Made by a program: the position numbers and the translations under genes
Source of the DNA: a virus
Taxonomy: Duplodnaviria; Heunggongvirae; Uroviricota; Caudoviricetes
DNA length: 10,352 nucleotides
IMG/VR virus record: IMGVR_UViG_2695420596_000008
Location: 1-10,352 of that record
Strand: one strand, 5' to 3'
The notes under the pieces: generated by a model
The model's database searches: none
What the model was told of the DNA's origin: nothing
Seen by the model: the letters and a program-made list of their open reading frames with translations, nothing else
In this document: piece by piece, positions 1-6,689 of the stretch
Position numbering within the stretch: position 1 is the first letter of the stretch
Layout: the number at the start of each line of letters is the position of its first letter

Positions 1-1074
1 TCATTTGTCGATTTCAATTTTGTCCCATTCCCGTCCACGGCTGTCCCTATACCGCGCCGCCATTGAATCTGATTTATGCCCGAGAAGACGTTGAGCAAAC
101 TTATCGCCAATCTGGTTCCGGTATAGCCTCGCTGACAGGCTACGCAGTTCATGGAATGTTGGCGGGTTTCCATCAAATGAGAGGCCAGATGCATTTCTCG
201 CCTTTGTAAAATACTTTGATACTGTTTTCGGGGAAAGCGGATCGTGATGCTTTGATGCGATTATAGTTTCACTGCTGCTGGCCTCCCTGCATTTCTGTAG
301 TGTATCAGCCAATGAGATATTGAGCGCGTCAATCGTTAGCGTTAGCGGAATGGCGAGTTTAGCCCCTGTTTTACTCTGTTTAATGTGAAGATGGTTGTCG
401 TTTATGTCTGACCATTTCATTCTGCACAAATCGCCGACTCTCTGCCCTGTAACGACGGCCAAATCCATCGCCAGCCTTAGCCAGATAGGGAGAGGTTCGG
501 CTGCATGGTAAATCTCGACATACTCATTAGCTGTCAGCCTTGAGCGCCTTACTTCTGACTTTGCTGTACGGGTTGCTGTTACCGGATTCGTTGCCACATG
601 CCCCTCGGCTATTGCTTCACGAAAAACGTCAACAAGGGTTGACCTGATTAATTTTGCGGAAGCTGCTTTACCTTCTGCTACGTAGGTGTTTAGCATTGCT
701 GCCACTTCTTTCGTTGATATGTCAGTGAGCGGTTTGTCCGGCAATTTTCTTCGGATTGCCCTGATTTTGCTGGCGTAGTCGAGTAGAGTTTTCGGCCTGA
801 TCCCCCTTTCGGTGAGGATTGTTTCATATCGGTCAAGCCACACATGAAGAGTGATTGCGTCACCGCCTTTAATTCTGTCTATCAGTGATTTGCGTCCGCT
901 GTCTGAGAGTAACTCAATATTGGCCTGTATTGCTTCAGTGATTGCTATCCTCCTGTCTCGGCCTAATCCAAACTCTTTACCCGTCCTTGGGTCCCTGTAG
1001 CAGTAATATCCATTGTTTCTTATATAAAGGTTAGGGGGTAAATCCCGGCGCTCATGACTTCGCCTTCTTCCCAT
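1..1074 (-). CDS. int: Tyrosine-recombinase integrase, lambda/HK022 Int family
   Basis: 357-codon ORF whose stop lies at the window edge. The N-terminus MGRRRSHERRDLPPNLYIRNNGYYCYRDPRTGKEFGLGRD reads as the lambda-family arm-binding domain. The catalytic signature is present: TGQRVGDL (Arg), FHELRS (His-x-x-Arg), LLGHKS (His), ARYRD (Tyr). It overlaps xis by 23 nt, as in lambda. The length (357 aa) and the central domain look HK022-type rather than lambda-type, from memory. Confidence 0.97.
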   Translation of the reverse strand: MGRRRSHERRDLPPNLYIRNNGYYCYRDPRTGKEFGLGRDRRIAITEAIQANIELLSDSGRKSLIDRIKGGDAITLHVWLDRYETILTERGIRPKTLLDYASKIRAIRRKLPDKPLTDISTKEVAAMLNTYVAEGKAASAKLIRSTLVDVFREAIAEGHVATNPVTATRTAKSEVRRSRLTANEYVEIYHAAEPLPIWLRLAMDLAVVTGQRVGDLCRMKWSDINDNHLHIKQSKTGAKLAIPLTLTIDALNISLADTLQKCREASSSETIIASKHHDPLSPKTVSKYFTKARNASGLSFDGNPPTFHELRSLSARLYRNQIGDKFAQRLLGHKSDSMAARYRDSRGREWDKIEIDK

Positions 1075-1270
1075 TTCTGATCCTCTTCAAAAGGCTACCT
1101 GTTACTGGTCGATTTAAGTCAACCTTTACCGCTGATTCGTGGAACAGATACTCTCTTCCATCCTTAACCGGAGGAGGGAATATCCTGCACTCGCGTACCC
1201 ATCGACGAACTGTTTCAAGGCTTCTTGGGCGTCGCTGGCGTGCGTTCCACTCCTGAAGTGTCAAGTACAT
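1052..1270 (-). CDS. xis: Excisionase Xis
   Basis: 72-aa ORF MYLTLQEWNARQRRPRSLETVRRWVRECRIFPPPVKDGREYLFHESAVKVDLNRPVTG.. reads as lambda Xis. It overlaps the int start. Confidence 0.97.
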   Translation of the reverse strand: MYLTLQEWNARQRRPRSLETVRRWVRECRIFPPPVKDGREYLFHESAVKVDLNRPVTGSLLKRIRNGKKAKS

Positions 1271-1296
1271 CGCAAAGTCTCCGCAATTACACGCAA
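1264..1296 (-). promoter_or_regulatory. pI-like CII-activated promoter for int
   Basis: The minus strand reads TTGCGTGTAATTGC (plus 1283-1296), a TTGC-N6-TTGC CII site. It is followed by 13 nt and then TGTACT (1264-1269). The geometry matches the pRE-like site at 9438-9470. The promoter sits across the xis start codon, so its transcripts would express int but not xis, as in lambda. Confidence 0.6.
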
Positions 1297-1320
1297 GAAA
1301 AAACCGCCATCAGGCGGCTT
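1296..1320 (-). terminator. Intrinsic terminator-like hairpin between the 55-codon ORF and xis
   Basis: Minus strand: GCCGCC-TGAT-GGCGG followed by TTTTTTCTTG. It overlaps the stop codon of the 55-codon ORF. Confidence 0.55.
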
Positions 1321-1477
1321 GGTGTTCTTTCAGTTCTTCAATTCGAATATTGGTTACGTCTGCATGTGCTATCTGCGCCCATATCATCCAGTGGTCATAG
1401 CAGTCATTGATGTTCTCTGCTTCGATAACTCTGTTGAATGGTTCTCCATTCCATTCACCTGTGACTCGGAAGTGCAT
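1310..1477 (-). CDS. Small conserved lambdoid protein (55 aa) upstream of xis
   Basis: Hand-translated because it is below the ORF-track cutoff: MHFRVTGEWNGEPFNRVIEAENINDCYDHWMIWAQIAHADVTNIRIEELKEHQAA*. Its size and position match the 55-codon ORF I recall just upstream of xis in lambda. The overlapping 61/117-aa track ORFs have no comparable support. Confidence 0.7.
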   Translation of the reverse strand: MHFRVTGEWNGEPFNRVIEAENINDCYDHWMIWAQIAHADVTNIRIEELKEHQAA

Positions 1478-1529
1478 TTATCATCTCCATAAAACAAAAC
1501 CCGCCGTAGCGAGTTCAGATAAAAGAAAT

Positions 1530-1545
1530 CCTCGTCAGTGCGAGG
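1530..1545 (-). terminator. Weak terminator-like hairpin
   Basis: Minus strand: CCTCG-CACTGA-CGAGG followed by ATTTCTTTTATCT. The stem is only 5 bp and the U-tract is interrupted. Confidence 0.3.
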
Positions 1546-1719
1546 ATGCTGTTCATTGCTGCTATACACTTTTTTGCTCTCAACGTAAGCGGTAGCTCAT
1601 TCTGTTGGGTTGGTGCAGTTGCTTTTAGGAAATGCTATTTACCCCTTAAACGTCGGCTGAAAGAGCTAAAATCCATGCAAAAAATTTACGCAATTTTGTG
1701 TATTATTGTGCAGTAAGTA

Positions 1720-2322
1720 ATGAGCTATTTTCTGCGCAAAAAATGGATGGTAAATTTGTCCGGGGCAGGAAAAATTTTATGGACGCTAAACATGAAAAAA
1801 GATTCGTATCCTTATTTGATTTGCATGACAGTTTCAGGCCTGATCTTTATTTTCCTTTTCTTCTGGTGGCGGGCAGATATTTACAGGGTCACGTTTCTTA
1901 ATCAGAGTATATCCCACTATTACATTCTGTTTAGCATGGGAATAGCTTTTCTGTTATCTCTGTTTTGGGTTAAGAAGGGGATAGTAAAACAAAGCGGCTG
2001 GAAGAGTCTGTCAGCATACCTTAAGGTTTATGCAGGGATGTGCATATTTGCTGGATTTTTTCTGATTATACCCCTTACAACACTAACTTATTTTTTGCCT
2101 GGAGAGACATCGTCTTATGTTGCACCGTATCGGTATACTTCCGGTAGTTCAAAAAGTTGTTCTGGAGCTGAGGTGGATGACCCCGATCTACATGAGAATA
2201 TTCGCATTTGCTATCCGTATGGCAATTATGAGTACGATAATATTATCTATGTTGAAAAGAAAATTAATACATTAGGTGCGGTAGTAACATATGCACAGAC
2301 CGCGCGTGATGATACTGAATGA
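1720..2322 (+). CDS. Hypothetical integral membrane protein (about 3 TM segments plus a roughly 75-aa C-terminal soluble domain); moron-like accessory gene
   Basis: 200-codon ORF on the strand opposite to all neighbouring pL-operon genes. It looks clearly more AT-rich than exo/bet (estimated by eye, not counted). Hydrophobic stretches: YLICMTVSGLIFIFLFFWW, YYILFSMGIAFLLSLFWV, YAGMCIFAGFFLIIPLTTLTYFL. A hairpin follows at 2357-2380. The start is uncertain (ATG at 1720, 1747 or 1792, none with a strong SD). Confidence 0.7.
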   Translation: MSYFLRKKWMVNLSGAGKILWTLNMKKDSYPYLICMTVSGLIFIFLFFWWRADIYRVTFLNQSISHYYILFSMGIAFLLSLFWVKKGIVKQSGWKSLSAYLKVYAGMCIFAGFFLIIPLTTLTYFLPGETSSYVAPYRYTSGSSKSCSGAEVDDPDLHENIRICYPYGNYEYDNIIYVEKKINTLGAVVTYAQTARDDTE

Positions 2323-2356
2323 GATAGTATATAGCGGGCAAGTTTTAGTTAATTTA

Positions 2357-2392
2357 TCGAGGTAATATAATTTACCTCGACTCGTTTATTCT
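2357..2392 (+). terminator. Intrinsic terminator of the membrane-protein moron
   Basis: Perfect 9-bp stem TCGAGGTAA (2357-2365) / TTACCTCGA (2372-2380) with loop TATAAT, followed by CTCGTTTATTCTGG. It lies 35 nt after the stop codon. Confidence 0.55.
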
Positions 2393-2532
2393 GGTATTAA
2401 TATTTCGCTTTACGATCGATTTTTATCTGATGATATCATGCGGTTTTCATATACTGACTTACTGTCTTTTCTCCGTTAGCGATTTTCTCCTGCTCAGCGA
2501 TGATTTTATCTTTGGCTTCTAGTTAATTTCGC

Positions 2533-2754
2533 TCACTTCGAACCTCTCTGTTTACTGATAAGTTCCAGATCCTCCTGGCAACTTGCACAAGTCCGACAAC
2601 CCTGAACGGCCAGGCGTCTTCGCTCATCTATGGGATCGCCACACTCACAACAATGAGTGGCAGATATAGCCTGGTGGTTCAGGCGGCGCATTTTTATTGC
2701 TGTGTTGCGCTGTAATTCTTCAATTTCTGATGCTGAATCAATGATGTCTGCCAT
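2533..2754 (-). CDS. orf73: TraR/DksA-family C4 zinc-finger protein (73 aa), the orf73 position of the exo-xis region
   Basis: The CxxC-N17-CxxC motif (CCECGDPIDERRRLAVQGCRTCASC) is typical of TraR/DksA C4 fingers. The 73-aa length and its location downstream of orf61 in the exo-xis region match what I recall as orf73 of lambdoid phages. Confidence 0.85.
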   Translation of the reverse strand: MADIIDSASEIEELQRNTAIKMRRLNHQAISATHCCECGDPIDERRRLAVQGCRTCASCQEDLELISKQRGSK

Positions 2755-2806
2755 CTTCCATTAATCCCTGAATTGTTGGTTAATACGCTTGAGGGTGAAT
2801 GCGAAC

Positions 2807-2830
2807 AATAAAAAAGGAGCCTGTAGCTCC
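2807..2830 (-). terminator. Intrinsic terminator-like hairpin upstream of orf73
   Basis: Minus strand: GGAGC-TACAG-GCTCC followed by TTTTTTATTG. Confidence 0.5.
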
Positions 2831-2852
2831 CTGATGATTTTGCTTTTCATGC

Positions 2853-3134
2853 TCACCGTTCCTTAAAGACGCCGTTTAACATGCCGATCGCCAGGCTTAA
2901 ATGAGTCGGTGTGAATCCCATCAGCGTTACCGTTTCGCGGTGCTTCTTCAGTACGCTACGGCAAATGTCATCGACGTTTTTATCCGGAAACTGCTGTCTG
3001 GCTTTTTTGATTTCAGAATTAGCCTGACGGGCAATGCTGCGAAGGGCGTTTTCTTGCTGAGGTGTCACTGAACAAGCCCCATGTCGGCAAGCATAAGCAC
3101 ACAGAATATGAAGCCCGCTGCCAGAAAAATGCAT
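2853..3134 (-). CDS. exo-xis region ORF (orf61-like); start uncertain
   Basis: 93-codon ORF with no SD before the ATG at 3134. An alternative GTG at 3068 has GGGG 8 nt upstream and forms a GTGA overlap with a 27-codon upstream ORF; it would give a 71-aa product, MTPQQENALRSIARQANSEIKKARQQFPDK... The position corresponds to lambda orf61, but the reading frame is organised differently (see findings). Confidence 0.5.
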   Translation of the reverse strand: MHFSGSGLHILCAYACRHGACSVTPQQENALRSIARQANSEIKKARQQFPDKNVDDICRSVLKKHRETVTLMGFTPTHLSLAIGMLNGVFKER

Positions 3135-3144
3135 TCAGTGGTTG

Positions 3145-3336
3145 TCATACCTGGTCTCTCTCATCTGCTTCTGCTTTCGCCACCATCATTTCCAGCTTTT
3201 GTGAAAGGGATGTGGCTAACGTATGAAATTCTTCGTCTGTTTCTACTGGTATTGGCACAAACCTGACTCCAATTTGAGCAAGGCTATGTGCCATCTCAAT
3301 GCTCGTTCTTAACTCAACAGGAGATGCTTTGTGCAT
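3145..3336 (-). CDS. orf63: exo-xis region protein Orf63
   Basis: 63-aa [40 protein letters not shown]... Its size, position and 28-nt overlap with orf60a match lambda orf63 as I recall it. Confidence 0.85.
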   Translation of the reverse strand: MHKASPVELRTSIEMAHSLAQIGVRFVPIPVETDEEFHTLATSLSQKLEMMVAKAEADERDQV

Positions 3337-3491
3337 ACAGCCCCTCGTTTATTATTTATCTCCTCAGCCAGCCGCTGGGCTTTCAGTGGATTTTGGATAA
3401 CAGAAAGGTCGGGAAATACCCAGCCTCGCTTTGTAACGGAGTAGACGAAAGTGATCGCACCTACCCGGATATTATCGTGAGGATGCTTCAT
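3309..3491 (-). CDS. orf60a: exo-xis region protein Orf60a
   Basis: The ATG at 3491 forms an ATGA overlap with the exo stop and gives a 60-aa product, [24 protein letters not shown]... The track ORF starts two codons earlier, at 3497. Confidence 0.85.
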
Positions 3492-4168
3492 CGCCATTGC
3501 TCCCCAAATACAAAACCAATTTCAGCCAGTGCCTCGTCCATTTTTTCGATGAACTCCGGCACCATCTCGTCAAAACCCGCCATGTACTTTTCATCCCGCT
3601 CAACCACGACATAATGCAGTCCTTCACGCTTCATACGCGGGTCATAGTTGGCAAAGTACCAGGCATCTTTTCGCGTCACCCACATGCTGTACTGCACCTG
3701 GGCCATGTAAGCTGACTTTATGGCCTCGAAACCACCGAGCCGGAACTTCATGAAATCCCGGGAGGTAAACGGGCATTTCAGTTCAAGGCCGTTGCCGTCA
3801 CTGCATAAACCATCTGGAGAGCAGGCGGTACGCATACTTTCGTCGCGATAGATGATCGGTGATTCAGTAACATTCACGCCGGAAGTGAACTCAAACAGGG
3901 CTCTGGCGTCGTTCTCGTACTGTTTTCCCCAGGCCAGCGCTTTAGCGTTAACTTCCGGAGCCACACCGGTGCAAACCTCAGCAAGCAGGGTGTGGAAGTA
4001 GGACATTTTCATGTCAGGCCACTTTTTTCCGGAGCGGGGTTTTGCTATTACGTTATGAACTTCTGAAGCTGTGATGACGCCGAGCCGTAATTTGTGCCAC
4101 GCATCATCCCCCTGTTCGACAGCTCTCACGTCGATCCCGGTACGCTGCAGGATAATGTCCGGTGTCAT
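3488..4168 (-). CDS. exo: Lambda exonuclease (Red alpha)
   Basis: The 226-aa translation [65 protein letters not shown]... reads as lambda Exo almost residue for residue. There is a 4-nt overlap with bet. Confidence 0.98.
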
Positions 4169-4950
4169 GCTGCCACCTTCTGCTCAGTGGCTTTCTGTTT
4201 CAGGAATCCAAGAGCTTTCACTGCTTCGGCCTGTGTCAGTTCTGACGATGCGCGAATGTCGCGGCGAAATATCTGGGAACAGAGCGGCAATAAGTCGTCA
4301 TCCCATGTTTTATCCAGGGCGATTAGCAGAGTGTTAATCTCCTGCATGGTTTCATCGTTAACCGGAGTGATGTCGCGTTCCGGCTGGCGTTCTGCAGTGT
4401 ATGCAGTATTTTCGACAATGCGCTCGGCTTCATCCTTGTCATAGATACCAGCAAATCCGAAGGCCAGACGGGCACACTGAATCATAGCTTTATGCCGTAA
4501 CATCCGTTTAGGATGCGACTGCCACGGCCCCGTGATTTCTCTGCCTTCGCGGGTTTTGAATGGTTCGCGGCGGCATTCATCCATCCATTCGGTAACGCAG
4601 ATCGGATGATTACGGTCCTTGCGGTAAATCCGGCATGTACAGGATTCATTGTCCTGCTCAAAGTCCATGCCATCAAACTGCTGGTTTTCATTGATGATGC
4701 GGGACCAGCCATCAACGCCCACCACCGGAACGATGCCGTTCTGCTTATCAGGGAAGGCGTAAATTTCTTTCGTCCACGGATTAAGGCCGTACTGGTTGGC
4801 GACGATCAACAATGCGATGAACTGCGCATCGCTGGCATCGCCTTTAAATGCCGTCTGGCGAAGAGTGGTGATCAGTTCCTGTGGGTCGACAGAATCCATG
4901 CCGACACGTTCAGCCAGCTTCCCTGCCAGCGTTGCGAGTGCTGTACTCAT
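4165..4950 (-). CDS. bet: Red beta single-strand annealing protein
   Basis: The 261-aa translation [66 protein letters not shown]... reads as lambda Bet. Confidence 0.98.
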
Positions 4951-4955
4951 CCGTT

Positions 4956-5372
4956 TTATACCTCTGAATCAATATCAACCTGATGGTGAGCAATGGTTTC
5001 AACCATGTACCGGATGTGTTCTGCCATGCGCTCCTGAAACTCAACATCGTCATCAAACGCACGGGTAATGGCTTTTTTGCTGGCCCCGTGGCGTTGCAAA
5101 TGACCGATGCATAGCGATTCAAACAGGTGCTGGGGCAGGCCTTTTTCCATGTCGTCTGCCAGTTCTGCCTCTTTCTCTTCACGGGCTATCTGCTGGTAGT
5201 GACGCGCCCAGCTCTGAGCCTCAAGACGATCCTGAATGTAATAAGCGTTCATGGCCGAACTCCTGAAATAGCTGTGAAAATATCGCCCGCGAAATGCCGG
5301 GCTGATTAGGAAAACAGGAAAGGGGGTTAGTGAATGCTTTTGCTTGATCTCAGTTTCAGTATTAATATCCAT
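4956..5372 (-). CDS. gam: Gam, RecBCD inhibitor
   Basis: The 138-aa translation [61 protein letters not shown]... reads as lambda Gam. An internal Met (MNAYYIQ) would give the short form. Confidence 0.98.
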
Positions 5373-5470
5373 TTTTTATAAGCGTCGACGGCCTCACGAA
5401 ACATCTTTTCATCGCCAATAAAAGTGGCGATAGTGAATTTAGTCTGGATAGCCATAAGTGTTTGATCCAT
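5327..5470 (-). CDS. kil: Kil (FtsZ-targeting host-killing peptide, 47 aa)
   Basis: An internal Met of the 89-aa track ORF gives [47 protein letters not shown], which is lambda Kil as I recall it. It overlaps both gam and cIII, as in lambda. Confidence 0.9.
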
Positions 5471-5603
5471 TTTTTGGGACTCCTGGCTGATTAAGTATGT
5501 CGATAAGGCGTTTCCATCCGTCACGTAATTTACGGGTGATTCGTTCAAGTAAAGATTCGGAAGGGCAGCCAGCAACAGGCCACCCTGCAATGGCATATTG
5601 CAT
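5439..5603 (-). CDS. cIII: CIII, FtsH (HflB) protease inhibitor (54 aa)
   Basis: Hand-translated because it is below the ORF cutoff: [54 protein letters not shown], which reads as lambda CIII. The SD AAGGAG lies 7 nt upstream (taaataAGGAGcacaccATG). Confidence 0.93.
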   Translation of the reverse strand: MQYAIAGWPVAGCPSESLLERITRKLRDGWKRLIDILNQPGVPKNGSNTYGYPD

Positions 5604-5627
5604 GGTGTGCTCCTTATTTATACATAA

Positions 5628-5652
5628 CGAAAAACGCCTCGAGTGAAGCGTT
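5628..5652 (-). terminator. Intrinsic terminator-like hairpin between ea10 and cIII (tL2-type position)
   Basis: Minus-strand RNA: AACGCUUC-ACUC-GAGGCGUU (8 bp including one G-U pair) followed by UUUCGUUAUG. Confidence 0.5.
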
Positions 5653-5675
5653 ATTGGTATGCGGTAACGCAGCGC

Positions 5676-6044
5676 TCAGGCGGCTTTGATAGTCATATCA
5701 TCTGAATCAAATATTCCTGATGTATCGATATCGGTAATTCTTATTCCTTCGCTACCATCCATTGGAGGCCATCCTTCCTGACCATTTCCATCATTCCAGT
5801 CGAACTCACACACAACACCATATGCATTTAAGTCGCTTGAAATTGCTATAAGCAGAGCATGTTGCGCCAGCATGATTAATACAGCATTTAATACAGAGCC
5901 GTGTTTATTGAGTCGGTATTCAGAGTCTGACCAGAAATTATTAATCTGGTGAAGTTTTTCCTCTGTCATTACGTCATGGTCGATTTCAATTTCTATTGAT
6001 GCTTTCCAGTCGTAATCAATGATGTATTTTTTGATGTTTGACAT
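5676..6044 (-). CDS. ea10: Ea10 (lambda early-left protein, 122 aa)
   Basis: The 122-aa translation MSNIKKYIIDYDWKASIEIEIDHDVMTEEKLHQINNFWSDSEYRLNKHG... matches lambda Ea10 in size, position and sequence, from memory. Confidence 0.9.
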   Translation of the reverse strand: MSNIKKYIIDYDWKASIEIEIDHDVMTEEKLHQINNFWSDSEYRLNKHGSVLNAVLIMLAQHALLIAISSDLNAYGVVCEFDWNDGNGQEGWPPMDGSEGIRITDIDTSGIFDSDDMTIKAA

Positions 6045-6063
6045 CTATTCATATCCTCATAGA

Positions 6064-6092
6064 TAAAAAATTGCCCTCACATCGGAGGGCAA
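6064..6092 (-). terminator. Strong intrinsic terminator upstream of ea10
   Basis: Minus strand: TTGCCCTC-CGATGT-GAGGGCAA (8-bp GC-rich stem) followed by TTTTTTATC. Confidence 0.7.
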
Positions 6093-6206
6093 AGAAGATT
6101 TCCAATAATCAGAACAAGTCGGCTCCTGTTTAATTATGAGCGACATTTCTCCGTGTATTCACTCGTTGGAATGAATGCACAGTGCAGTGTTTATTCTGTT
6201 GTTTAT

Positions 6207-6235
6207 GCCAAAAATAAAGGCCGACTATGCGGCCT
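6207..6235 (-). terminator. Intrinsic terminator after the 149-aa membrane-protein gene
   Basis: Minus strand: AGGCCG-CATAGT-CGGCCT followed by TTATTTTTGG. It begins 5 nt after the stop at 6240. Confidence 0.65.
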
Positions 6236-6239
6236 AAAA

Positions 6240-6689
6240 TTACTTAACCAATGATGCTGCATATTCGATAAGGTAAAGCTTTGGGGCCAGCCAAATTTTT
6301 AACCAAGTCATATTGGTTACTACAGCAATAATAAAACTTACCCACAGAACAAAAACTGCAGCTAATGGTAAGATTAGAAAACTAATCTCACCGTTACTTT
6401 CCCAAATCATAGTCGGTTTGTATTTAGTCTTCCCCTTATCCCATGACCATCCTTCATCATCGAACTTACCAATTTCAACTTTTTGGCACTGTTTCTTCAT
6501 AAACCAGAAAACCAGCGGGATTGTTAAAATGGCTATTAATGTTTTAATCAGACTGTCAACCATATTCCATAGCAGTAACTGATGAACAACATCAGGAATC
6601 TGTGCCTGGCTAAATGAGACAGCCGCGTCTATTCCATTACTGGCTTTTTGCAATAGTTCTATGAGAATCTTATTTGCCTGTTCTTCCAT
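6240..6689 (-). CDS. Hypothetical membrane protein (2 predicted TM segments) immediately downstream of N
   Basis: 149-codon ORF with a good SD (GAGGTGatatATG). TM candidates: LIKTLIAILTIPLVFWFM and ISFLILPLAAVFVLWVSFIIAVV. It has its own terminator. It occupies the slot where lambda carries sieB/ral, but I see no similarity to either. Confidence 0.75.
   Translation of the reverse strand: MEEQANKILIELLQKASNGIDAAVSFSQAQIPDVVHQLLLWNMVDSLIKTLIAILTIPLVFWFMKKQCQKVEIGKFDDEGWSWDKGKTKYKPTMIWESNGEISFLILPLAAVFVLWVSFIIAVVTNMTWLKIWLAPKLYLIEYAASLVK

What the first reader, a model, noticed from the sequence alone, without database searches (positions are those of the whole stretch)
1600..2400. Opposite-strand, AT-rich membrane-protein moron inserted between the xis-proximal ORF and the exo-xis genes
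**Seen in the sequence**
- Everything from int to N is leftward except one 200-codon ORF (1720-2322, plus strand).
- That ORF looks markedly more AT-rich than its neighbours (estimated by eye). It has an AT-rich upstream region (1600-1719).
- It is followed by its own perfect 9-bp-stem hairpin (2357-2380).
- The product has three strongly hydrophobic helices and a roughly 75-aa Tyr/Gly/Ser-rich C-terminal domain (…YVAPYRYTSGSSKSCSGAEVDDPDLHENIRICYPYGNYEYDNIIYVEKK…).
- It replaces the position where lambda carries ea8.5/ea22.

**Inference**
- This is an autonomous transcription unit convergent with pL transcription, the classic moron layout. It is often lysogen-expressed and frequently involved in superinfection exclusion, envelope modification or defence.
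- I recognise no family.
Basis: partly seen in the sequence, partly recalled or inferred. Interest (0 to 1): 0.6.

Follow-up and report, generated by a model that had tools for sequence, protein, structure and literature searches.

The report
Prophage membrane-protein moron captured from P2-like phage
A self-contained accessory gene for a small inner-membrane protein of unknown function sits backwards in the early-left operon of a lambda-like prophage; it was copied from the 'defence hotspot' of P2-like phages and probably protects the lysogen at the cell envelope, but this is untested.

Summary
The plus-strand ORF 1720-2322 is real, AT-rich (GC 0.39; neighbours 0.45-0.52), has three hydrophobic helices and is followed by a strong 9-bp hairpin. 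It fills the slot where lambda has ea8.5/ea22. The conserved protein starts at Met25 (window 1792, 176 aa). It is predicted N-in, with three TM helices and a periplasmic five-stranded beta-domain carrying two invariant cysteines.

It is a true gene: dN/dS is 0.08-0.15 and 107 of 110 loci are intact. It occurs in phages 434, 2B8 and mEp332 and in about 17% of complete E. coli genomes, including defective O157:H7 Sp3 (ECs_0804).

New here: the module (~1569-2537) came from a P2-like phage. Diverged homologues sit in the P2 portal-Q/replication-A hotspot. The window's upstream 1569-1720 is relic P2-like backbone, including the TTGTGC repeat array that the 434 annotators called a CII box. The right end is a decayed Ea22-like gene. 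A conserved extended -10 promoter (1728-1756) travels with the gene. Older syntenic chromosomal homologues exist in seven other enterobacterial genera.

No known family or fold matches, and it is not SieA. The moron interpretation is supported. Envelope-level superinfection exclusion is the best guess and is unproven.

The parts
1528..1547 (-). Leftward terminator hairpin (t-L4 of the phage 434 literature record). It belongs to the lambda-shared flank and marks the left neighbour of the module.
   Evidence: The terminator-like site is found. M60848 annotates t-L4 at the equivalent position. Lambda homology runs to about 1553.
1569..1659 (+). Relic of P2-like phage backbone, from the portal-Q side of the hotspot/cos region.
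   Evidence: It is 70-72% identical to the backbone 110-200 nt upstream of the TTGTGC array in P2-like loci that carry unrelated cargo (L204, L213, L219, L157, L131, L152). About 78 bp present in the P2-like loci between this segment and the next is missing here.
1660..1713 (+). Relic of the P2-like backbone A-tract plus the 10-bp-phased TTGTGC repeat array. In the window it reads TTACGC-aatt-TTGTGT-atta-TTGTGC. It includes the 'CII box' 1696-1709 annotated in phage 434.
   Evidence: The array, with its conserved left flank, was found in 85 P2-context loci followed by diverse cargo. The window aligns to it at 73-76% identity. TTGYN6TTGY has 4 matches in the window against 2.4 expected by chance.
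1728..1756 (+). Predicted sigma-70 promoter of the cassette: -35-like TTTTCT (1728-1733), a 17-nt spacer, and an extended -10 TG-g-TAAATT (1748-1756). The predicted transcription start is near 1763.
   Evidence: The footprint TTTTCN/TTTCCA-N17-TGnTAA(A/T/G)TT is conserved in lambdoid, P2-like and two chromosomal (Cedecea, Citrobacter) copies (alignment A4). The generic scan missed it because the -35 matches only 3 of 6. This is an inference, not a mapped start.
1792..2322 (+). Coding sequence of the 176-aa inner-membrane protein (phage 434 gp36, ECs_0804, WP_000120056 minus 24 N-terminal residues). Predicted layout: cytoplasmic N-terminus, three TM helices, periplasmic C-terminal beta-domain. 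The mechanical ORF extends upstream to 1720.
   Evidence: Met25 is invariant and no upstream start exists in 8 other loci. dN/dS is 0.08-0.15 and 107 of 110 loci are intact. AF2 gives pLDDT 82.5 for the whole protein and 90.8 for the C-domain. Loop charges are consistent with N-in/C-out.
2357..2380 (+). Downstream hairpin with a 9-bp perfect stem and 6-nt loop. It is a probable terminator or 3'-end stabiliser of the cassette transcript.
   Evidence: dG -12.9, z -5.6. A hairpin at the same place in the closest P2-like copy, L098, has one compensatory change, one wobble and one mismatch.
2475..2537 (-). Decayed Ea22-like gene remnant. It reads GTG-S-E-I-N-stop, then out of frame LEAKDKIIAEQEKIAN. 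It is the right-hand junction of the module with the lambda-type backbone.
   Evidence: tblastn of the intact 127-aa Ea22-like ORF that neighbours the gene in L098 matches this segment. DNA homology to L098 covers 2479-2522. Lambda homology resumes at 2520.

Best explanation
Window ~1569-2537 is a single-gene accessory cassette (a moron) that a lambdoid phage acquired from the cos-proximal cargo hotspot of a P2-like phage.

Shown:
- The cassette carries relic P2 backbone on its left and a decayed Ea22-like gene on its right.
- The 176-aa product is a conserved protein under purifying selection.

Predicted:
- The protein sits in the inner membrane with its N-terminus and the basic TM2-TM3 loop in the cytoplasm.
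- Its conserved loop 1 and a small acidic five-stranded beta-domain, with two invariant cysteines, face the periplasm. The cysteines are probably disulphide-bonded.

Inferred:
- The gene has its own extended -10 sigma-70 promoter and points against pL. It would therefore be made in the repressed prophage and damped by N-antiterminated pL read-through during lytic growth.
- Its most likely job is envelope-level protection of the lysogen. The periplasmic face would bind a conserved host or phage component at the inner membrane and block genome entry of superinfecting phages. That is the logic of P22 SieA, HK97 gp15 and T4 Imm.

The phage copies descend from an older chromosomal enterobacterial gene family, as HK97 gp15 descends from YebO.

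Confidence by layer: real autonomous accessory gene captured from a P2-like hotspot, about 0.85-0.9; inner-membrane N-in/C-out topology, about 0.75; anti-phage or superinfection-exclusion function, about 0.4.
For: A real gene:
- dN/dS is 0.08-0.15 against P2-like copies.
- Within the lambdoid alleles there are 62 synonymous and 34 non-synonymous differences over 116 and 412 sites.
- 107 of 110 loci are intact.

Moron features:
- Low GC.
- The region is replaced by ea8.5/ea22 in lambda.
- A conserved promoter footprint and a downstream hairpin.

Origin:
- 47-80% identical homologues always lie between portal Q and replication gene A in several P2-like lineages. That interval is the old/tin defence hotspot (PMC9122126).
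- Window 1569-1720 matches P2-like backbone found next to unrelated cargo.
- The lambdoid copy is sister to an 80% identical E. coli P2-like copy in the tree.
- An Ea22-like remnant marks the right junction.

Topology and functional face:
- Net charge is +1.3 at the N-terminus, +2.4 in loop 2 and -1.5 in the C-domain.
- Loop 1 and the C-domain are the best conserved parts.
- Cys147 and Cys164, with the CSGAxV and IxICYP motifs, are conserved.
- The models are confident.

Selection in lysogens:
- The gene is intact in defective Sp3 of O157:H7 Sakai, where int and bet are pseudogenes, and in strain 2149, where exo is split by an IS.
- It is present in 906 of 5426 complete E. coli genomes.

Prior:
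- 6 of 8 randomly chosen unknown-function loci from the equivalent P4 hotspot gave phage protection (PMC13586616).
- SieA is likewise a roughly 164-aa, three-TM inner-membrane protein expressed from the prophage (PMC10883804).
Against: - There is no experimental or transcript evidence of any kind (searches found nothing).
- There is no homology to any known exclusion or defence protein: PADLOC gives none and hhalign to SieA gives probability 0.14%.
- Stable, syntenic chromosomal homologues in Enterobacter, Phytobacter/Kosakonia and others argue for an underlying cellular envelope function.
- Strong purifying selection with an invariant periplasmic motif is unlike the fast diversification often seen in arms-race proteins.
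- Machine learning flagged only 15-32% of unknown P2 hotspot proteins as antiviral (PMC13586616).
- The promoter is a footprint, not a mapped start, and the -35 is weak.
- The hairpin lacks a good T-tract.
Confidence: 0.45

Rival explanations
1. Lysogenic-conversion or envelope-physiology factor unrelated to phage defence. The phage copies keep the ancestral cellular role of the chromosomal family. Candidate roles include envelope stress tolerance, modulation of a periplasmic or inner-membrane host machine, or orphan immunity against a periplasm-acting toxin such as a colicin-M-type bacteriocin or a T6SS effector. In that case the disulphide-bonded periplasmic domain would be the binding module.
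For: - Syntenic, GC-ameliorated chromosomal homologues occur in seven genera. In Enterobacter the gene starts 16 nt after a LysR gene.
- Purifying selection is strong and the periplasmic motifs are invariant across phage and chromosomal copies.
- The architecture (membrane anchor plus small periplasmic Cys-pair domain) resembles periplasmic immunity proteins. This resemblance is from my own knowledge, not tested.
Against: - Phage-borne copies sit precisely in the P2 hotspot, which is dominated by anti-phage cargo (PMC9122126, PMC13586616).
- There is no toxin partner nearby.
- There is no family or fold assignment.
Confidence: 0.3
2. Abortive-infection or toxic membrane effector. The protein would be held inactive or made at low level. 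On infection it would permeabilise or depolarise the inner membrane and kill the cell before phage release.
For: - It is a single small multi-TM protein in a defence hotspot.
- TM proteins in known systems are often suicide effectors (discussion in PMC9122126).
Against: - There is no sensor partner.
- It is a stand-alone gene, stably carried in 17% of E. coli genomes and in chromosomes of other genera.
- The most conserved part is the periplasmic beta-domain, not the helices. That fits a binding role better than pore formation.
Confidence: 0.1
3. CII-activated establishment gene. The TTGT-N6-TTGT box at 1696-1709, annotated in phage 434, would make this a lambda-CII-dependent promoter like pI, pRE or paQ. 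The gene, or an antisense transcript against pL read-through, would then be switched on during the lysis-lysogeny decision or by CII of a superinfecting lambdoid phage.
For: - The box matches TTGYN6TTGY.
- The two bona fide CII sites of this prophage (pI at 1283-1296, pRE at 9457-9470) are the only other biologically placed matches.
- pRE itself uses a TTGT half-site.
Against: - The repeats are inherited P2-like backbone, found next to dozens of unrelated cargos in phages that have no lambda-type CII.
- pI and pRE have their -10 hexamer 13 nt after the second repeat. Here that position reads AGCTAT, and the best -10 is 3 nt out of register.
- 2.4 matches are expected by chance.
- A separate conserved extended -10 promoter lies downstream.
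Confidence: 0.07
4. Not a functional gene: a chance ORF in AT-rich junk left by recombination.
For: - No family is assigned.
- Part of the surrounding module is demonstrably relic DNA.
Against: - dN/dS is about 0.1 over 20-50% protein divergence.
- The ORF is intact in 107 of 110 loci across three kinds of genomic context.
- The AF2 model is confident and the start codon and promoter footprint are conserved.
Confidence: 0.02

Closest known systems
P22 SieA (superinfection exclusion A)
   Same: - It is a prophage-expressed stand-alone gene on the opposite strand to its neighbours, with its own promoter.
- It is about 162-164 aa, with three predicted TM segments, and is located in the inner membrane.
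- It blocks DNA injection of related phages (PMC10883804).
   Different: - There is no sequence relationship: hhalign probability is 0.14%.
- The SieA motif FxRYPxEAxxFNK is absent.
- SieA has no C-terminal beta-domain. Its TM2 and TM3 lie at the C-terminus after a long loop.
- SieA genes are confined to P22-like prophages, between genes 16 and 9.
HK97 gp15 (the founding moron; YebO-derived)
   Same: - It is a moron with deviant GC and its own promoter and terminator.
- It encodes a small inner-membrane protein that blocks genome entry.
- Its homologues are restricted to Enterobacteriaceae and most are chromosomal, suggesting capture of a host gene (PMC3594210). The same pattern is seen here.
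   Different: - gp15 is much smaller with a single TM, lies in the tail operon, and is unrelated in sequence.
- The function of the present protein is untested.
P2 old / tin (cargo of the P2 Q-A hotspot)
   Same: - It occupies the same genomic slot in P2-like phages, with the same orientation (convergent with gene A).
- It is transcribed from a promoter next to the cos-proximal repeat region.
- It is expressed in the lysogen and excludes other phages (PMC9122126).
   Different: Old is a cytoplasmic ATPase-nuclease and Tin is soluble. Neither shares anything with this membrane protein in sequence, fold or cellular location.
PHROG phrog_1416 (unknown function)
   Same: Residues 113-200 match the whole 90-position profile with E = 2e-50. 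It is the same family.
   Different: The PHROG covers only TM3 and the beta-domain, apparently because it was built from truncated gene calls. It carries no functional information.
DUF1093 / small OB- or SH3-like membrane-anchored barrels (e.g. PDB 3npp, 2k5q)

Membership tests
Moron (Hendrix/Juhala definition as summarised in PMC3594210) | Extra DNA that is present in some and absent from other closely related phage genomes | tested here: met
   Lambda and many relatives share both flanks at 97% identity but carry ea8.5/ea22 instead. Only 434, 2B8 and mEp332 among 50,697 phage records have the gene.
Moron (Hendrix/Juhala definition as summarised in PMC3594210) | Nucleotide composition different from the surrounding genes | tested here: met
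   GC is 0.39 for the gene and 0.34-0.40 for its flanks, against 0.45-0.52 in neighbours.
Moron (Hendrix/Juhala definition as summarised in PMC3594210) | Own promoter and terminator allowing expression from a repressed prophage | tested here: inconclusive
   A conserved extended -10 footprint lies at 1728-1756, and the hairpin at 2357-2380 has z -5.6. No transcript data exist. The -35 and the T-tail are weak.
SieA family | Sequence homology to SieA types A-C, including the motif FxRYPxEAxxFNK | tested here: not met
   hhalign probability is 0.14%. The motif is absent from the sequence.
SieA family | Location in P22-like prophages between the homologues of genes 16 and 9 | tested here: not met
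   The gene is found between xis/orf55 and orf73 in lambdoid prophages, in the P2-like Q-A hotspot, or in chromosomes.
SieA family | Blocks DNA injection by superinfecting phage | not testable with these tools
   This needs plating, potassium-efflux and DNA-entry assays.
P2-like hotspot cargo / anti-phage defence system | Located between gpA and gpQ next to cos in P2-like phages | tested here: met
   This holds for the 47-80% identical homologues. The window copy itself is in a lambdoid prophage but carries relic hotspot-flanking backbone.
P2-like hotspot cargo / anti-phage defence system | Match to a known or candidate defence protein model | tested here: not met
   PADLOC-DB gives 0 families. 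Pfam and NCBIfam give none.
P2-like hotspot cargo / anti-phage defence system | Confers resistance to phage infection | not testable with these tools
   This needs efficiency-of-plating assays with the cloned gene.
Lambda CII-dependent promoter (pRE/pI/paQ type) | TTGC-N6-TTGC-type direct repeat flanking the -35, with a -10 hexamer 13 nt after the second repeat | tested here: inconclusive
   The repeat is present at 1696-1709. However, the -10 register differs from pI and pRE of the same prophage, and the repeat is inherited P2-like backbone.

The most novel reading that the evidence does not exclude
This is the founding member of a new family of envelope-acting superinfection-exclusion proteins. 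The architecture is three TM helices plus a disulphide-clamped periplasmic mini-barrel. The family would have been recruited from a chromosomal enterobacterial gene, spread through P2-like defence hotspots, and then been handed to lambdoid phages together with a piece of P2 backbone. If so, classical phage 434 and about one in six E. coli strains, including O157:H7, would carry an unrecognised phage-entry block. The locus would also be a rare case in which the direction of a defence-gene transfer between unrelated temperate phage families can be read from the DNA.
Probability: 0.3. Interest if true: 0.6.

Novelty: new member of a known kind. Interest (0 to 1): 0.45.

Why it matters
Phage 434 is a textbook phage, and the same gene sits in about 17% of complete E. 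coli genomes, including a defective O157:H7 prophage that has kept it intact. Yet it has no name, no family and no function.

If it blocks phage entry, it would matter in two ways. It would add a new protein family to the small set of inner-membrane exclusion factors (SieA, gp15, Imm). It would also bear on phage-therapy host range and on experiments that use 434 or lambda-434 hybrids.

Independently of function, the locus documents the movement of hotspot cargo from a P2-like phage into the lambda exo-xis region, with backbone relics that fix the direction. The recent large survey of P2/P4 hotspots (PMC13586616) says such direction is usually hard to infer.

The result also warns that the 'CII binding site' annotated upstream of this gene in the 434 genome record is probably a relic of a P2-like repeat array.

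Tried and rejected
- **Family libraries.** Pfam, NCBIfam and PADLOC gave nothing. PHROGs gave only an unknown-function family covering the C-terminal 88 residues.
- **Deep profile search.** A profile search of 1.84 billion representatives returned only 57 hits, all of the same roughly 170-aa architecture, with no fusions or informative relatives.
- **SieA homology** was tested and rejected.
- **CII-dependent promoter.** I first took this idea seriously. I demoted it after the collection scan showed the repeats are P2-like backbone.
- **cos core.** I tried to show that the roughly 78 bp missing from the window relative to P2-like backbones is the cos core. The P2 19-mer is not recognisable in these diverged P2-like loci, and P2 itself does not align there, so this stays open.
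- **Literature.** Searches by accession, by the Sakai locus tag and by phage names found no functional or expression data.
Full report
**1. What is in the sequence**

The window is the int-to-O region of an E. coli lambdoid prophage. Its arrangement is that of prophages integrated next to ybhC, for example O157:H7 strain 2149. It is not phage 434 itself. It lacks 434's ORF114 and has a different cI. It does share the 1500-2550 module with phages 434, 2B8 and mEp332 at 98.8-100% identity.

The plus-strand ORF 1720-2322 exists. It is the only convincing rightward gene between int and N.

Its GC is 0.388, with flanks of 0.398 (1478-1791) and 0.343 (2323-2532). Its neighbours are at 0.45-0.52. Two leftward ORFs further on (5676-6044, 6240-6689) are equally AT-rich.

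The 2357-2380 hairpin has nine perfect pairs, dG -12.9 kcal/mol and z -5.6. Its T-tail is poor.

Three hydrophobic stretches are present.

Lambda and many relatives share window 1050-1553 and 2520-3350 at about 97% identity and have ea8.5/ea22 in between.

**2. The gene is real, but shorter than the ORF**

Homologues were found only in Enterobacteriaceae: 74 clusters in 5.8 billion proteins and 57 representatives in 1.84 billion. They are 169-180 aa long.

All begin at the residue aligned with Met25 of the 200-codon ORF. In eight loci from other contexts there is no in-frame ATG, GTG or TTG upstream of that codon. The coding sequence is therefore 1792-2322, 176 aa.

Selection is strongly purifying:
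- dN/dS is 0.08-0.15 between the window and P2-like copies.
- Among 21 lambdoid alleles there are 62 synonymous and 34 non-synonymous differences over 116 and 412 sites.
- 107 of 110 sampled loci are intact.

**3. The protein**

AlphaFold2 with the family alignment gives mean pLDDT 82.5. It predicts three long helices followed by five beta-strands. The last 77 residues modelled alone reach pLDDT 90.8.

Family-wide charge is +1.3 at the N-terminus, +2.4 in the TM2-TM3 loop, +0.5 in loop 1 and -1.5 in the C-domain. By the positive-inside rule this gives N-in and C-out.

Loop 1 and the C-domain, the predicted periplasmic parts, are better conserved than TM2, TM3 and loop 2.

Two cysteines (147 and 164 in ORF numbering) lie in the motifs S-C-S-G-A-x-V and I-x-I-C-Y-P. 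They are present in all 19 representatives examined, phage-borne or chromosomal. A periplasmic disulphide is likely.

No family was assigned:
- Pfam, NCBIfam and PADLOC gave nothing.
- PHROG 1416, of unknown function, matches only residues 113-200.
- A profile search against PDB sequences found nothing.
- BFVD gave nothing significant, and AFDB50 could not be searched.

**4. Where the family lives**

There are three kinds of context.

a) About 65 lambdoid loci carry copies that are 97.7-100% identical. The gene is always at the same place, with orf55/xis 479/737 bp to the left and orf73 744 bp to the right. It is always opposed to the pL operon.

b) About 16 viral contigs plus Salmonella and Klebsiella genomes carry copies that are 47-80% identical. 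These always lie between portal gene Q and replication gene A of several P2-like lineages, convergent with A. Rousset et al. (PMC9122126) define exactly this interval as the P2 anti-phage hotspot. In P2 itself it holds old and tin.

c) Copies that are 36-56% identical occur in ordinary chromosomal neighbourhoods of Enterobacter, Klebsiella, Kosakonia, Phytobacter, Pseudescherichia, Serratia, Citrobacter and Cedecea.
- Six Enterobacter species share the same GGDEF-protein neighbour.
- Phytobacter and Kosakonia share about 90% identical 12-kb flanks.
- Enterobacter and Klebsiella copies have GC close to that of their loci, but the Cedecea copy does not (0.41 against 0.51).

In a neighbour-joining tree the lambdoid copy is sister to an E. 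coli P2-like copy. It sits inside the P2-like clade, which in turn is nested among chromosomal lineages.

**5. The module was captured from a P2-like phage**

DNA homology between the window and the closest P2-like locus (L098) runs from 1655 to 2412. There are extra pieces at 1598-1659 and 2479-2522.

The phage-borne copies share two to four TTGTGC repeats at exact 10-bp spacing upstream of the gene. In the 434 genome record this is annotated as a CII binding site.

A scan of IMG/VR for three phased TTGTGC repeats returned 120 or more loci. In 85 of them, with P2 markers, the array and a conserved left flank (gccggaagggtaaaaagtcgttcaaaaaaa) are followed by many unrelated cargos. The array is therefore P2-like backbone at the edge of the hotspot, not part of the gene cassette.

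Window 1569-1659 and 1650-1720 align at 70-75% identity to that backbone in loci with unrelated cargo. About 78 bp is missing between the two segments. cos is expected in this interval (PMC9122126, PMC13586616). I could not recognise its core in these diverged phages.

At the right end, window 2475-2537 (minus strand) is a decayed Ea22-like gene. It matches the intact 127-aa Ea22-like ORF that neighbours the gene in L098. Lambda homology resumes within the first codons of ea22.

The simplest history is recombination between a lambdoid phage and a P2-like prophage, homologous at the ea22-like sequence on the right and illegitimate on the left, followed by decay. The transfer direction, P2-like to lambdoid, is fixed by the backbone relics and the tree. 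The 2026 survey of P2/P4 hotspots notes that such direction is usually hard to establish.

**6. Regulation**

The TTGYN6TTGY box at 1696-1709 is one of four matches in the window, against 2.4 expected by chance. Two others are the true pI (1283-1296) and pRE (9457-9470) sites. In both, a -10 hexamer lies 13 nt after the second repeat. Here that position reads AGCTAT, and the only decent hexamer is 3 nt out of register. Combined with the P2-backbone origin of the repeats, CII control is unlikely, though not excluded.

An alignment of the proximal upstream regions shows a conserved footprint: TTTTCN/TTTCCA, 17 nt, then TG-n-TAA(A/T/G)TT. It is present in lambdoid, P2-like and the Cedecea and Citrobacter copies. 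In the window it lies at 1728-1733 and 1748-1756.

This is an extended -10 sigma-70 promoter predicting a start near 1763. The ATGs at 1720 and 1747 and the TTG at 1756 would then lie upstream of or inside the promoter. That agrees with Met25 as the start.

This is comparative inference; no transcript data were found. The gene opposes pL. It should therefore be free to be expressed in the repressed prophage and subject to interference from antiterminated pL transcription in lytic growth (inference).

**7. What it most likely does**

Shown:
- It is a conserved, mobile, single-gene cassette.
- It resides in the P2 defence hotspot.
- It is retained intact in decaying prophages. In Sp3 of Sakai, int and bet are pseudogenes. 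In strain 2149, exo is split by an IS.
- It is present in 906 of 5426 complete E. coli genomes.

Predicted: an inner-membrane protein with a conserved periplasmic face.

Inferred: it acts at the envelope of the lysogen. The best-supported specific mechanism is blocking genome entry of superinfecting phages by binding a conserved component at the inner membrane or periplasm. This is analogous to P22 SieA, which is 162-164 aa, has three TM segments, sits in the inner membrane and is prophage-expressed (PMC10883804). It is also analogous to HK97 gp15, which likewise derives from a chromosomal enterobacterial family (PMC3594210).

The prior is helped by the finding that 6 of 8 randomly chosen unknown loci in the equivalent P4 hotspot were defensive. 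It is tempered by only 15-32% of unknown P2 hotspot proteins being predicted antiviral (PMC13586616).

Against the exclusion reading:
- The family has stable chromosomal members.
- It evolves conservatively.
- It has no similarity to any known exclusion or defence protein.

A non-defence envelope role, including orphan immunity to a periplasmic toxin, is a serious rival. An Abi-type membrane effector and a CII-controlled establishment function are less likely. A spurious ORF is excluded.

**8. Comparison with known families, and novelty**

It works most like SieA or gp15-type morons, but it is a member of neither:
- SieA homology and its motif were tested and not met.
- gp15 is a single-TM YebO relative.

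It is the same family as PHROG 1416, which carries no function.

I classify it as a new member of a known kind: a prophage moron encoding a small inner-membrane protein. The protein family itself is uncharacterised. The traceable P2-to-lambda transfer and the re-interpretation of the annotated CII box are modest new points.

Interest is moderate. Nothing here overturns expectations. The gene is nonetheless common, sits in a classical phage, and the hypothesis is cheaply testable.

Noticed in passing
L115-L234 (IMG/VR), e.g. L204, L213, L219; relic at window 1660-1713: P2-like phages carry a conserved array of three (sometimes more) TTGTGC repeats at exact 10-bp spacing, preceded by gccggaagggtaaaaagtcgttcaaaaaaa. 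It lies at the Q-side edge of the Q-A cargo hotspot and is immediately followed by highly variable cargo. Reference P2 has a different phased repeat there (TTAATGCA / ATGCA / TTGAATGCA), whose last copy is my inferred -35 of the old-tin promoter. I did not establish what binds the array: terminase, a regulator, or nothing.
   Followed up: partly
window 2475-2537 (-) and L098 6622-7005 (-): An intact 127-aa Ea22-like ORF (N-terminus MSEINYQALRE...) sits in a P2-like hotspot next to the membrane-protein gene. The window keeps only a frameshifted remnant of it. Ea22-like sequence shared by lambdoid and P2-like phages may serve as a recombination bridge between the two phage families.
   Followed up: partly
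window 1546-1716 (+): The 434 genome record annotates a 56-aa 'putative membrane protein' (CPT_434_35) here. The ORF lies on relic non-coding P2-like backbone that is interrupted by about 78 bp in the P2-like originals. It has no Pfam match and is probably not a gene.
   Followed up: partly
window 6240-6689 (-) and 5676-6044 (-): Two further AT-rich (GC 0.37-0.385) accessory ORFs lie in the pL operon between cIII and N. One is a 149-aa protein with hydrophobic segments and no Pfam family. The other is a 122-aa DUF2528 protein (E 1e-47). Both look like additional horizontally acquired cargo.
   Followed up: partly
window 7483-7611 (-) and 7627-7989 (-): Two leftward ORFs (42 and 120 aa, no Pfam family) occupy the slot between N/pL and cI where lambda has rexB and rexA. 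They are candidates for prophage-expressed genes co-transcribed with the repressor.
   Followed up: no
window 9457-9470 (-): The resident phage's pRE-type CII box (TTGCTGTAACTTGT) overlaps codons 4-8 of its cII gene, as in lambda. This holds even though this cII (98 aa, MEQTSYSKL...) does not, by my recollection, match lambda cII. A TAAGAT -10 lies 13 nt downstream.
   Followed up: partly
window 5558-5616 (-): The lambda cIII thermoregulator RNA element (Rfam RF01804, 88.5 bits) is present upstream of cIII. It is the only Rfam family detected in the window.
   Followed up: yes
L007, L024, L034 (Enterobacter chromosomes), ~5085-6510: In at least three Enterobacter species (L007, L024, L034) the chromosomal homologue starts 16 nt after the stop of a LysR-family regulator gene in the same orientation, suggesting co-transcription. 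The upstream gene differs in the other three (L025-L027). A GGDEF protein gene is the conserved downstream neighbour in all six. This could be a handle on the ancestral cellular function.
   Followed up: partly
L013/L014 (Klebsiella P2-like prophage), 2281-5623: In this P2-like hotspot the membrane-protein gene shares the slot with a 790-aa AAA_16 ATPase and a 279-aa partner on the opposite strand. This is probably a separate defence system.
   Followed up: no
L021: A 3.5-kb contig labelled 'Candidatus Nanosynbacter' MAG carries a 99% identical copy with orf73 and exo. It is almost certainly an E. coli prophage contaminant binned into the MAG.
   Followed up: no
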